From assembly GCF_003018255.1 (NCBI RefSeq), contig NZ_CP027441.1: DNA of 64,000 nt. The stretch is one strand, 5' to 3'. Below are positions 21,101 to 24,100 of the stretch, one piece after another; within the stretch, counting starts at the first letter, position 1; every line of letters begins with the position of its first letter. The DNA comes from Escherichia coli. GTDB taxonomy: Bacteria; Pseudomonadota; Gammaproteobacteria; Enterobacterales; Enterobacteriaceae. The position numbers were made by a program.

Positions 21101-24100
21101 CGTTCATTTCCATTCTTTCCAATGGAAAAAACACTTTGGGGATTTGAGGCTGCAAACCCAGTATAAATCCTATCATTAATTTTTGCCTCAGTTACTTCTG
21201 TAGCCAACTTATCAACTGAGCCAGAACCAATTGCTACACTCTTATCAAAATTTACAGTGGCATCTTGTCCCAGAGCTACCGCAGAGGGCTTATTTACGAT
21301 CGCCGAGTCACCTATAGCTACAGAATTGACAGAATTTATACCCTTAACATGGCTGTACGCCCCTAAAGCAATACTGTTTTCAGCCTCTGCTTTGCTATTA
21401 TATCCTATCGCATTTGACTGATTTCCTCCAGCAACGGCTGTAGCACCCAGCGCGTTAGCCCCCATACCAGTTGCTTTACTGACCGCACCAATTGCAAGAG
21501 ATAAAGTTTCTGTTGCTTTACTTTGAGGGCCGACAACGATACTGGCGTCTCCTGTAGCCTCTGATGCGTCATAATTATCAGGGATCAATACTCCCCCATA
21601 CGAACGTCCTTTTAATGGCGTAAGGTCATCACCACCAATAACAATTGCTCCCCATCCACTTGCTTTAGTATCACCACCTATCGCGATTGACTGTTCTTTA
21701 GTCGCTTGTGCTTTGGCGCCGATTGCAATAGATTCTCCTGTCTTAAACCCTTCTGGAGTTTGTATCTCACCACCTGCTATCGCACTTGTACCAATAGCAA
21801 TAGAATTACGCCCACTAGCAATTGGAGACGTATGTTTGAAATAAATACCCTTATCTGGATCTTCTGGAACTTCACTAGTAGTCCCTATTTCGATGCTCAG
21901 CCAGTCATTACCTGCTGTATCCACCGGAGCTTCATCAACCTCAATATGAGACGTATTCTTTTCTGCAAAGGTCATAGCAACCGGAGCTATTGCTAGCGCA
22001 ATAGAAACACAAAGGAGTGTTTTTTTATATTTCATCGTCAGTCTCAACAATTTAAGGTATGCAATACTCTTGGAGTTTCCTTATCAACCCCAAGCATTCT
22101 TATAAAATACTCTAATAGCATGACACATATAAAAACAAGCAAGCAAGTAAACATACAATGTATCCTTTGATGCTCGCCCCTATACAGATAAAATCATTCC
22201 ATTTTATAAAACATAGAAGACATGCCTTGCAAAAAAAATAACCTTAATGTAGCTGTTACTTATAAAACTCCCTTAAGCGACATATGTTTTGATGTATTTT
22301 GTTTAATCGATTCAAGCTCACTGTTAAGTATCCATTATTTATATTATAGTGTTCGCAAACGAACTTTCTTGAACATCCATCAACCAAATAGGCTCTCAAA
22401 GAATCAAATACCTTCTTACTACATATCGGTGATATATCCATCAATAATAAGAAATGTTCTTCATCTAAACAGCCTGGCGTTAACATACTTTCGTCAGGTG
22501 CTCTGGTGTTTTTTTTATCCAAATTAATGATTCTCTCCATGCATGCCTCCTTTTTTACTATCATAAATACAAAAACAACTTTATCTCAACTCTCTCTTTA
22601 CATACGAAAAAAAGTCAAACAATCCATACACAACAGCAATAACAACAGAAACAACCAAGAAAAACAAAAAAAGAAAAACAAAAAACCAATACGCGAAGCA
22701 AAACCAAAAAAACACTTTTAAAACAGAAATAAAAAAAATTAGATAAAAATCAAATGACGACAATATTATCTAAACTTGCAATTAAAAATGAAACCTGTTC
22801 TTTGCAAGTGTGATAGTATTATTCTTCTGCAAGCTGATAAATGACATGCTTAGTTATCCCTCCCATTAATTTCTATTAAATATTTAATAAACTTGAACTT
22901 TGATTTCTACCCTTGATTTTTTCAAAAAACAATCAGTCGAACTGACTGGAGAATAACTCTAAAGACTCCTTCCATCTGGCGGTGATTAAACAGAGACAAG
23001 CATCATTGTTCTTCCCCTGAAATAACAGACTCGCAGCTAAGTAATAGCTCTGTCAGTGTGAGTCACATTACACAATGAAGTTGCACACTGAATTTGGCCA
23101 CCTGAACAGAGGTGATATGCTCACCTCAGAACAACACCGGTGCTCCAATGAAAAAAAGAAATTTCAGCGCAGTGTTTAAACGCGAATCCGCTCAACAGGT
23201 TGTTGACCAGAACTACACGGTGGCAGATGCCGCCAAAGCTATGGATGTTAGCCTTTCCACAATGACAAGATGGGTTAAACAACTGCATGATGAGCGTCAG
23301 GGCAAAACACCAAAAACCCCTCCGGGTAACACCAGAACAAATCGAAATACGTGAGCTGAGGAACAAGCTATAACGCATTGAAATGGAGAATGAGATATTA
23401 AAAAGGCTACCGAGCTCTTGATGTCAGACACCCTGAACAGTTCTCGATAATCGGGAAACTCAGAGCGCATTATCCTGTGGTAACATTCTGCCATGTGTTC
23501 GGGGTTCATCGCAGCAGCTACAGATACTGGAAAAACCGTCCTGAAAAAACAGACGGCAGACGGGCTGTATTACGCAGTCAGGTACTTGAGCTACATGGCA
23601 TCAGCCACGGTTCGGCCGGAGCAAGAAGCATTGCCCGGAGAGGCTACCAGATGGGATGCTGGCTTGCTGGCAGACTCATGAAAGCGCTGGAAATGGCATG
23701 AAAAACCCATGGTAAGCCCAGCGAGGTGATGTTCCACAGCGATAGTAATAATGCCGGTATCAGTTTTTATCATCACTCTGTTTGCTGTTTAACCAGATTG
23801 GTGTGATTACTGATGCAGTGAAGACCTTCCCGCATCCTGACTCACACAGAGCTCGCCCCTTTGTGTCCTGCCCCGGACCTGTCGGTTGCCGGAAGCGCCT
23901 TCATGCGAGGCGTCTCCTCACCGATGCGCGTGACTCAAGAAGGGCCTGACGGCTTGTCTCGTTACTGTCCTGTCTGGGTTATCTGTCTGGAGATTCAACT
24001 CTGTTTCCTCACAGGAGCTCTGTTATGGCAGGTAAAGTTACGGAAACTGCTGTTGTGGGTAGCGTGGATACACATAAAGATCTGCACGTTGCCGCTGTCG

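What the first reader, a model, noticed from the sequence alone, without database searches (positions are those of the whole stretch)
22596..22760. Strand-asymmetric A/C-rich tract upstream of the PapB-like gene
About 165 bp contain almost only A and C on the plus strand, lying just upstream of the regulator gene that precedes sab. It may be a curved or H-NS-binding regulatory region, or a junction scar next to the IS911-like element.
Basis: seen in the sequence. Interest (0 to 1): 0.3.

Follow-up and report, generated by a model that had tools for sequence, protein, structure and literature searches.

The report
Conserved T-rich spacer upstream of sab regulator
The A/C-rich stretch is real: it is the fixed-length, T-rich control region just upstream of the promoter of the PapB-type regulator and Sab adhesin operon on a pO113-like E. 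coli plasmid, a feature typical of this regulator family and not an insertion-sequence scar.

Summary
The tract exists. Window 22596-22760 is 62% A, 18% C, 8% G and 12% T, the most A+C-rich 165 bp in the 64 kb (z about 5.9). "Almost only A and C" overstates it; it is A-rich and T-depleted.

The PapB-family regulator gene (22256-22540) and sab lie on the minus strand, so on the gene strand the tract is T/G-rich. It fills the gap between a conserved sigma-70-like promoter (TTGAGA-18-TATGAT, 22589-22560) and a conserved distal box (GTTTAGATAATATTGT, 22775-22760).

Nine sab-type alleles have regulators down to 62% identical. Between the most divergent clades the tract is barely more similar than chance. 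Its composition (79-92% T+G) and length (box to -35: 185-188 bp in eight alleles, 198 bp in one) are kept.

Comparable T/G-rich stretches lie upstream of many fimbrial PapB-family genes, including pap itself.

The sab region has no GATC sites and no papI-like gene. The IS911-like element starts 315 bp away, so the scar idea fails.

Best reading: a length-constrained binding platform for oligomerising regulators (the PapB-like protein, Lrp, H-NS) controlling the adhesin operon. Binding is inferred, not shown. Strong intrinsic curvature is not supported. Interest is modest.

The parts
22596..22760 (-). The tract as reported. It is A/C-rich on the + strand and therefore T/G-rich on the strand of the regulator gene.
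   Evidence: Base counts and the window-wide scan; skew profile.
22590..22759 (-). The full spacer between the distal box and the -35 hexamer, about 170 bp. Its length and T/G composition are conserved; its sequence is not.
   Evidence: Box to -35 distance is 185-188 bp in 8 of 9 alleles and 198 bp in L003. Spacers are 79-92% T+G. In-register identity is 46-63% against 44-51% for shuffles.
22607..22715 (-). Compositional core of the tract, 88% A+C on the + strand. It holds six A-runs of 5-7 bases; two more, including the single A8 run (22731-22738), lie in the rest of the tract.
   Evidence: Maximal-scoring segment; list of A-runs.
22749..22775 (-). Conserved distal element, read on the gene strand as GTTTAGATAATATTGT, then N7, then TTTGAT.
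   Evidence: Invariant block in the alignment of five divergent alleles. It is present, with at most 3 changes, in all nine alleles. The 13-mer occurs nowhere else in 406 kb of held DNA except upstream of tosR.
22560..22589 (-). Predicted sigma-70 promoter of the regulator and sab operon: -35 TTGAGA (22589-22584), an 18-bp spacer, and -10 TATGAT (22565-22560).
   Evidence: The consensus scan scores it 10 of 12. TTGNNN-18-TANNNT sits at the same place in all nine alleles.
22538..22551 (-). Shine-Dalgarno sequence GGAGG (22551-22547) and the start codon ATG (22540-22538) of the regulator.
   Evidence: Sequence; PGAP start in NZ_CP027372.1.
22256..22540 (-). PapB-family transcriptional regulator gene, 94 aa.
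   Evidence: Pfam PF03333 at E = 1.8e-36. It is 47% identical to PapB of CFT073 and 39% identical to TosR.
17740..22035 (-). sab, a trimeric (YadA-like) autotransporter adhesin gene downstream of the regulator.
   Evidence: ORF; annotation 'autotransporter adhesin Sab'; YadA stalk and anchor Pfam hits in homologous loci.
16912..17715 (-). BamE/OmpA-domain lipoprotein gene, the third gene of the conserved module.
   Evidence: Pfam PF04355 and PF00691. The gene order is the same in all loci.
22776..23075 (-). Non-coding segment beyond the box, better conserved than the tract. It contains a terminator-like hairpin at 22948-22930 that faces the operon.
   Evidence: 88% identity to STEC1588, against 71.5% for the tract. 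Terminator scan. Homology ends at 23075.
23076..23700 (+). Left end of the degenerate IS911-like (IS3-family) element. It is not part of the feature and serves as the boundary marker.
   Evidence: blastn boundary; transposase pseudogene annotation.

Best explanation
The tract is the upstream control region of the operon that encodes the PapB-family regulator, the Sab adhesin and a BamE/OmpA protein.

On the gene strand it is a run of short T-tracts punctuated by G, about 170 bp long. It separates a conserved distal operator-like box from a conserved sigma-70 promoter.

What appears to be under selection is its length (about 186 bp from box to -35, or one helical turn more) and its A-poor, T-rich composition. 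Its exact sequence is not conserved.

The most likely mechanism is a platform on which oligomerising proteins that bind AT-rich DNA assemble. Candidates are the PapB-like regulator itself and Lrp, with H-NS as a probable silencer. Such an assembly would couple the distal box to RNA polymerase at the promoter and set the operon's expression level.

This is the same architecture as the T/G-rich stretches upstream of papB-type genes in fimbrial operons. It lacks the Dam (GATC) and PapI components of the pap switch.

Shown here: position, conservation of composition, length and flanking elements, the family-wide recurrence, and the absence of GATC and papI.

Inferred: protein binding, which proteins bind, and the effect on transcription.
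For: Location.
- The tract starts a few bases upstream of the -35 of the best promoter match in the region, TTGAGA-18-TATGAT.
- That promoter keeps TTGNNN-18-TANNNT at -48 to -51 from the ATG in all nine sab-type alleles.

Conservation of kind, not sequence.
- All 31 E. coli genome records with this locus carry it on plasmids.
- Alleles whose regulators are 62-88% identical all have an 80-bp window of 88-97% T+G at -160 to -225.
- megablast cannot align the tract between clades.
- In-register identity is 46-63%, against 44-51% for shuffles.
- Window versus STEC1588 identity is 71.5% in the tract and 84% and 88% in the flanks.
- Substitutions almost never create a + strand T: 2 of 47 mismatch sites.

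Length.
- The box to -35 distance is 185-188 bp in eight alleles and 198 bp in one.
- This holds even though A-run length polymorphisms occur between near-identical plasmids.
- The regulator-to-adhesin spacer, by contrast, varies from 12 to 220 bp.

Family-wide recurrence.
- The maximum T+G exceeds the maximum A+C upstream in 14 of 16 PapB-family loci, and reaches 0.85 or more in nine.
- Counting lineages, 11 of 13 show the bias (sign test p = 0.011).
- In CFT073 pap, the most T/G-rich 80 bp lies between papI and the CRP site. It contains the 9-bp repeats TTTGCTTTA TTTGTTCAA TTTAGTGAA TTTGCTTTT.
- That is where the review PMC11316696 places the high-affinity PapB oligomerisation site 1.

Literature.
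- PapB and FocB bind AT-rich motifs as oligomers. TosR, a PapB homologue, controls a non-fimbrial adhesin together with H-NS and Lrp (PMC5956150).
- H-NS covers the whole pap intergenic region, and Lrp binds six sites there (PMC11316696).

Allele L006 carries four exact 9-bp repeats, TTTGTTGTT, within the tract.
Against: - No binding, transcript or expression data exist for this locus in anything I could read. The Sab paper and the TosR promoter paper are not held.
- Motif scans gave nothing specific. There is no match to the Lrp SELEX consensus, the H-NS high-affinity motif or the IHF consensus in 22541-23075. The in-silico TosR motif matches only at 5 mismatches of 28.
- The 9-bp periodicity is weak in the window allele (z +1.6) and inconsistent across alleles.
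- Part of the length conservation could be simple descent. Some allele pairs keep in-register similarity above chance, with z up to 7.
- The T/G bias is not universal in the family. L018, L026 and L027 lack it, and tosR reaches only 0.71.
Confidence: 0.5

Rival explanations
1. One reading: the tract is intrinsically curved, AT-rich DNA whose principal role is to nucleate H-NS and silence a horizontally acquired adhesin operon.
For: - The tract is 74% A+T, against about 54% for the window.
- H-NS is reported to bind the whole pap intergenic region and to repress tos (PMC11316696; PMC5956150).
- Predicted curvature reaches the 99th to 99.9th percentile at 22550-22625.
Against: - The A-runs are not phased at 10-11 bp.
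- The core, 22625-22700, is predicted at about the 80th percentile only.
- Peak positions differ between alleles.
- TpA steps number 3 in the 109-bp core. A strand-symmetric sequence of equal A+T would have 13.5.
- There is no H-NS high-affinity motif.
- Strand asymmetry and a fixed length are not needed for H-NS coating.
- This reading is not exclusive of the best explanation.
Confidence: 0.2
2. The tract is a contingency locus. Slipped-strand changes in its many T-runs or short repeats alter the spacing or helical phase between the distal box and the promoter, switching adhesin expression on and off without Dam.
For: - The tract holds eight A-runs of 5-8 bases.
- Differences of one base at three different runs occur among plasmids that are at least 99.4% identical.
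- Alleles L006, L007 and L016 carry 7- to 9-bp tandem units, and T-run lengths differ between L007 and L016.
- One allele differs by about one helical turn.
Against: - The runs are short for efficient slippage in E. coli.
- The one-base differences could be homopolymer sequencing errors, and they are not congruent with the SNP pattern.
- The window allele has no long perfect repeat.
- The net length is conserved rather than variable across lineages.
- The repeats lie upstream of the -35, not between -35 and -10.
Confidence: 0.1
3. The tract has no function. It is cryptically simple DNA produced by replication slippage and mutational bias, and it persists by descent.
For: - It is low-complexity sequence containing short tandem units.
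- Polymorphism and divergence are higher than in the flanks.
- No specific factor motif was found.
Against: - Composition, strand orientation relative to the gene, length and position are kept across alleles with 62-88% identical regulators.
- The same bias recurs upstream of unrelated PapB-family operons.
- Neutral decay should reintroduce + strand T, which is not seen.
Confidence: 0.1
4. The operon is transcribed from a promoter at or beyond the distal box. The tract would then be a long, unstructured, U-rich 5' leader, for example a target for Hfq, RNase E or a small RNA.
For: - The box contains -10-like hexamers such as GATAAT and TATTAT.
- A weaker promoter match lies at 22847-22818.
- As RNA, the tract is less structured than shuffles, with z +1.79.
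Against: - No conserved -35 accompanies the box.
- The proximal promoter is the best match and is conserved in position in nine alleles.
- There is no Rfam match.
Confidence: 0.07
5. The tract is a junction scar or remnant left by the neighbouring IS911-like element, or it encodes a small protein.
For: - An IS3-family fragment lies nearby.
- ORFs of 60 aa (- strand) and 71 aa (+ strand) span the tract.
- Similar ORFs are annotated as hypothetical proteins in two records.
Against: - The IS end is at 23076, 315 bp away. Homology to STEC1588, whose sequence beyond the boundary does not match the window's, runs through to 23075.
- Loci with other flanks have the tract.
- The ORFs have no Pfam match.
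- The ORFs are broken by the indels seen between strains and by the 11-bp insertion in STEC1588.
- Their odd amino-acid content is simply the translated base composition.
Confidence: 0.02

Closest known systems
The papI-papB intergenic regulatory region of P-fimbrial (pap) operons and its relatives (daa, fae, pef, sfa, clp)
   Same: - A PapB-family gene is the first gene of an adhesin operon.
- A T/G-rich stretch on the gene strand lies 150-330 bp upstream of it.
- In pap this DNA carries the PapB oligomerisation site and the Lrp sites, and it is coated by H-NS (PMC11316696).
   Different: - There is no GATC anywhere between 21858 and 24079.
- There is no papI/faeA-like gene or remnant.
- There is no CRP site at the pap position.
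- The operon encodes a trimeric autotransporter, not chaperone-usher fimbriae.
- The tract is longer and more extreme in composition.
The tosR-tosCBDA promoter region of uropathogenic E. coli, where the PapB homologue TosR controls the non-fimbrial adhesin TosA together with H-NS and Lrp
   Same: - A PapB-family regulator leads a non-fimbrial adhesin operon.
- Regulation through AT-rich upstream DNA is reported (PMC5956150).
- The 13-mer of the sab distal box also occurs about 290 bp upstream of tosR.
   Different: - The regulators are only 39% identical.
- The tosR upstream DNA is AT-rich on both strands, with a maximum T+G of 0.71. It lacks the long strand-asymmetric tract.
- In tos the box is part of a palindrome.
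Repeat tracts upstream of adhesin promoters that give phase variation, such as the TAAA repeats of Neisseria nadA and the 7-bp repeats of Haemophilus hmw (recalled from general knowledge, not checked here)
   Same: - Short A/T-rich units lie upstream of the promoter of an autotransporter-type adhesin.
- Some alleles here have true 7- and 9-bp tandem units.
   Different: - The window allele has no long perfect array.
- Net length is conserved between lineages rather than variable.
- No switching has been shown.

Membership tests
Pap-type Dam/Lrp/PapI epigenetic phase-variation switch | A PapB-family regulator gene lies immediately downstream of the region. | tested here: met
   PF03333 at E = 1.8e-36; 47% identity to PapB of CFT073.
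Pap-type Dam/Lrp/PapI epigenetic phase-variation switch | Two GATC sites, about 100 bp apart, lie inside the Lrp sites. | tested here: not met
   There is no GATC between 21858 and 24079. Fimbrial relatives do have GATC pairs.
Pap-type Dam/Lrp/PapI epigenetic phase-variation switch | A divergently transcribed papI/faeA-family gene is present. | tested here: not met
   tblastn with PapI and a FaeA-like protein against the upstream DNA of five alleles found nothing better than E = 2. There is no ORF in 22760-23080.
Pap-type Dam/Lrp/PapI epigenetic phase-variation switch | Lrp binds to arrays of sites in the region. | not testable with these tools
   There is no match to the SELEX consensus at 3 or fewer mismatches. 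GN2-3TTTT words are enriched, but that follows from the base composition.
PapB-family oligomer binding site (PapB site 1 type) | AT-rich DNA upstream of the regulated promoter, T-rich on the gene strand. | tested here: met
   The position of pap site 1 is taken from PMC11316696.
PapB-family oligomer binding site (PapB site 1 type) | A 9-bp repeat with T/A triplets at fixed positions (feature recalled from Xia et al. 1998, which is not held). | tested here: inconclusive
   The repeat is seen in CFT073 pap and as four exact copies in L006. In the window allele the signal is weak: G autocorrelation at lag 9 is +0.24 and shift-9 self-identity gives z +1.6.
PapB-family oligomer binding site (PapB site 1 type) | The regulator binds the DNA. 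| not testable with these tools
   This needs EMSA or footprinting.
H-NS-bound intrinsically curved DNA | High A+T content. | tested here: met
   74% A+T in the tract.
H-NS-bound intrinsically curved DNA | A-tracts in helical phase and high predicted curvature. | tested here: inconclusive
   There is no 10-11 bp periodicity. The core sits at about the 80th percentile, with a peak only at 22550-22625. Peak positions are not conserved between alleles. The model parameters were recalled from memory and sanity-checked on synthetic sequences.
H-NS-bound intrinsically curved DNA | A high-affinity H-NS motif or many TpA steps. | tested here: not met
   No TCGATAAATT-like site was found at 2 or fewer mismatches. 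The core has 3 TpA steps, against 13.5 for strand-symmetric DNA of equal A+T.
Simple-sequence contingency locus | A long perfect homopolymer or tandem array. | tested here: not met
   In the window allele the longest run is A8, and Tandem Repeats Finder reports only 2-4 imperfect copies. L006, L007 and L016 have longer arrays.
Simple-sequence contingency locus | Length polymorphism between closely related strains. | tested here: inconclusive
   One-base differences occur at three runs among 12 near-identical plasmids. Sequencing error cannot be excluded.
IS junction scar | The feature is contiguous with an IS end and absent where the IS is absent. | tested here: not met
   The tract is 315 bp from the IS end at 23076, and it is present in loci with other flanks.

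The most novel reading that the evidence does not exclude
The tract is a length-constrained 'ruler' made of slippage-prone T-runs. Single-base gains or losses in any of about eight runs would rotate the conserved distal operator relative to the promoter. The result would be heritable, Dam-independent on/off or graded variants of a trimeric-autotransporter operon in E. coli. Selection would hold the population average at about 186 bp, or one helical turn more.
Probability: 0.1. Interest if true: 0.6.

Novelty: new variant of a known kind. Interest (0 to 1): 0.33.

Why it matters
Sab is an adhesin and biofilm factor of LEE-negative Shiga-toxigenic E. coli, and I could find nothing in the accessible literature on how it is regulated.

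The analysis defines a compact, testable control region:
- a promoter at 22589-22560;
- a spacer of about 170 bp;
- a distal box at 22775-22760.

It also shows that a PapB-type regulator is the first gene of a conserved three-gene adhesin module on enterohaemolysin plasmids.

More generally, a strand-specific T/G-rich stretch appears to be a common, little-remarked signature of PapB-family control regions. In this case it persists without the Dam/PapI machinery. That makes the locus a simple system for asking what the T-rich DNA itself contributes.

The practical gain is modest, and nothing here overturns current understanding.

Tried and rejected
Searches and tests that gave nothing useful:
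- Rfam search of 21900-23200 returned only sub-threshold chance hits.
- RNA folding of the tract as a leader gave a structure less stable than shuffles.
- Tests for 5-14 bp periodicity gave nothing consistent.
- Motif scans for Lrp, H-NS, IHF, CRP and Fis found no informative site inside the tract.
- The published in-silico TosR motif gave only 5-mismatch matches.

Readings rejected:
- The small-ORF reading, covering the 60-aa and 71-aa ORFs.
- The IS-scar reading.
- A PapI remnant.

Limits of the data:
- Four papers were not held: Herold 2009 (Sab), Engstrom and Mobley 2016 (tos promoter), Nou 1995 and Xia 1998. The pap Lrp consensus and the PapB 9-bp repeat are therefore cited from memory.

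Considered but not testable:
- The A/C-rich + strand RNA might act as a Rho-loading site for antisense transcripts.
- The sab box might be homologous to the distal GATC box of pap (TTTAGACGATCTTTTAT against TTTAGATAATATTGTCG).
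Full report
**1. What is there**

The window is a piece of a pO113-type enterohaemolysin plasmid of Shiga-toxigenic E. 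coli. Positions 22040-23060 are 100% identical to NZ_CP027372.1 and 99.6% identical to pO113 itself. Only 31 of 5,426 complete E. coli genomes carry the segment, always on a plasmid.

All three genes of the module lie on the minus strand:
- a BamE/OmpA-domain gene at 16912-17715;
- sab at 17740-22035;
- a 94-aa PapB-family regulator at 22256-22540.

The evidence is (PF03333, E = 1.8e-36). The reported tract lies 56 bp beyond the regulator's start codon.

**2. The observation**

Positions 22596-22760 hold 103 A, 30 C, 13 G and 19 T. A+C is 81%, rising to 88% in the core 22607-22715. This is the most extreme 165-bp window in the 64 kb (0.818, against mean 0.508 and sd 0.053; next best 0.709). 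No 80-bp window outside this locus reaches 80% for either strand class. AT skew reaches +0.75.

So the feature is real and far beyond chance. 'Almost only A and C' is too strong, though. The consistent property is A-rich and T-poor on the + strand, which means T-rich and A-poor on the strand of the regulator gene.

**3. Anatomy in the gene's orientation**

- The best sigma-70 match in the region is TTGAGA-18-TATGAT at 22589-22560 on the minus strand, scoring 10 of 12.
- It is followed about 7 bases later by AAAAAAGGAGG and the ATG.
- The tract begins right upstream of the -35 and runs for about 170 bp.
- It ends at a conserved element, GTTTAGATAATATTGT-N7-TTTGAT, at 22775-22749.
- Beyond that lie 300 bp of better-conserved non-coding DNA, with a terminator-like hairpin facing the operon at 22948-22930.
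- At 23076 the IS911-like fragment begins.

**4. Comparison with other sab and sab-like loci**

I collected nine distinct alleles:
- the Sab clade (12 plasmids aligned);
- STEC1588 (L003);
- three alleles in which the regulator abuts the adhesin gene (L006, L007, L016);
- four more found through protein relatives that are 62-88% identical (L029, L031, L033, L034).

All have the same gene order: regulator, YadA-like adhesin, BamE/OmpA, then ehxC.

Promoter. All keep TTGNNN-18-TANNNT at -48 to -51 from the ATG.

Distal box. All keep it, with at most three changes.

Composition. All have an intervening spacer of 79-92% T+G, with 80-bp maxima of 0.88-0.97.

Sequence. The spacer sequence is not conserved.
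- megablast does not align it between clades.
- In-register identity is 46-63%, against 44-51% for shuffles.
- Between the window and STEC1588, the tract is 71.5% identical while the flanks are 84% and 88%.
- Substitutions almost never introduce a + strand T: 2 of 47 mismatch sites.

Length. Length is conserved.
- Box to -35 is 185-188 bp in eight alleles and 198 bp, about one helical turn more, in L003.
- This holds although A-run lengths differ by one base at three places among near-identical plasmids.
- The regulator-to-adhesin spacer, by contrast, varies from 12 to 220 bp.

Some alleles carry true tandem units: four copies of TTTGTTGTT and runs of GTTTTTT.

It is present in all of them.

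**5. Comparison with the wider PapB family**

Upstream of fimbrial PapB-family genes there is often a similar T/G-rich stretch on the gene strand, usually next to GATC sites. I examined loci from E. albertii, E. marmotae, Salmonella (pef and a diarizonae locus), Edwardsiella and a K88-like plasmid operon.
- In 14 of 16 loci the maximum T+G exceeds the maximum A+C within 450 bp upstream. Nine loci reach 0.85 or more.
- Counting lineages, 11 of 13 show the bias (sign test p = 0.011).

For canonical pap I retrieved the CFT073 region. Its most T/G-rich 80 bp (0.75) lies between papI and the CRP site. It contains the 9-bp repeats TTTGCTTTA TTTGTTCAA TTTAGTGAA TTTGCTTTT.

According to PMC11316696, that is where PapB oligomerises at its high-affinity site 1. 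The same review states that Lrp occupies six sites around the two GATCs and that H-NS coats the whole region.

PMC5956150 states that PapB and FocB bind AT-rich motifs as oligomers. It also reports that the PapB homologue TosR controls the non-fimbrial adhesin TosA with H-NS and Lrp.

The 13-mer of the sab distal box occurs in 406 kb of held DNA only at sab-type boxes and once about 290 bp upstream of tosR. I treat that as a post-hoc lead, not proof of a shared operator.

**6. What it is not**

- Not a pap-type epigenetic switch. There is no GATC between 21858 and 24079, and no papI-like gene or remnant.
- Not an IS scar. The IS end is 315 bp away, homology to STEC1588 runs to 23075, and loci with other flanks have the tract.
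- Not coding. The 60-aa and 71-aa ORFs across it have no family match and are broken by strain-to-strain indels. 'Hypothetical protein' calls across it in two records look like artefacts.
- Not a known RNA. As RNA it would be unstructured.
- Not convincingly curved.
  - There is no 10-11 bp phasing.
  - A wedge-model calculation, with parameters recalled from memory and checked on synthetic phased and unphased A-tracts, puts the core at about the 80th percentile.
  - The only high peak is at the promoter and proximal edge.
  - Peak positions vary between alleles.
- No specific factor motif. Consensus scans for Lrp, H-NS, IHF, CRP and Fis found nothing informative in the tract.
- Poor in TpA steps. 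From general knowledge, that is not what H-NS prefers for nucleation, although coating remains possible.

**7. Most likely mechanism**

The shown facts are:
- the tract abuts a conserved promoter;
- it ends at a conserved distal box;
- its composition, strand orientation and length are conserved while its sequence turns over;
- the same kind of tract recurs in a family whose regulators oligomerise on T-rich, AT-rich DNA.

These fit a length-constrained protein-binding platform. Oligomers of the PapB-like regulator, and/or Lrp, would assemble on it, with H-NS as a probable antagonist. The assembly would couple the distal box to RNA polymerase.

The binding, the identity of the proteins and the sign of the effect are inferred. 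I put this at about 0.5.

The rivals, and my confidence in each:
- H-NS silencing as the main role: 0.2, and not exclusive of the best explanation.
- Slippage-based phase variation: 0.1.
- Functionless simple sequence: 0.1.
- A U-rich leader from a distal promoter: 0.07.
- A scar or an ORF: 0.02.

**8. Novelty and value**

This is a variant of a known kind of control region. It has PapB-family upstream DNA but lacks the Dam and PapI parts, and it is attached to a trimeric autotransporter operon.

The fixed length combined with free sequence is the one mildly surprising point. It gives a clean experiment: change the length by half a helical turn and by a full turn.

Interest is modest, at about 0.33.

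Noticed in passing
window 4555-4604: Five GATC sites spaced 11-13 bp apart, about 350 bp upstream of the RepB-family (IncFIB) replication initiator gene. The gene's position, about 4947-5924, comes from the coordinate offset to NZ_CP027372.1. The cluster looks like the Dam-methylation cluster of a P1/RepFIB-type origin.
   Followed up: partly
window 23057-23072: TGTGAGTCACATTACA matches the CRP consensus TGTGA-N6-TCACA with one mismatch. It lies directly against the IS911-like end at 23076, about 510 bp upstream of the predicted regulator start.
   Followed up: no
L036 10405-10440 (CFT073, upstream of tosR): The palindrome AATAATATCTATAATATAGATATTAT contains the same 13-mer as the sab distal box. 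It is the only occurrence outside sab-type loci in 406 kb of held DNA. It may be a shared operator for this branch of PapB-family regulators.
   Followed up: partly
L007 7404-7596; L016 6432-6624: A second, partial papB-like copy lies 1.1-1.4 kb upstream of the regulator in the L007/L016 clade, about 80% identical to the window's regulator gene.
   Followed up: no
window 22506-22721 (+); L008 1967-2272; L016 5259-5522: ORFs reading across the tract on the + strand give K/N/Q-rich products. Two public records annotate them as hypothetical proteins. They overlap the regulator's start and look like composition artefacts.
   Followed up: partly
window 22036-22255, compared with L006 5958-5969: The gap between the regulator and the adhesin gene is about 220 bp in the Sab clade but only 12-15 bp in the L006, L033 and L034 clades. 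The two genes are almost certainly co-transcribed in the latter, while sab may have gained extra control DNA.
   Followed up: no
window 22930-22948 (-): A terminator-like hairpin, CAGTCAGTTCGACTGATTG followed by T6, is conserved in STEC1588, L029 and L031. It is oriented to stop transcription entering the operon from the IS side.
   Followed up: no
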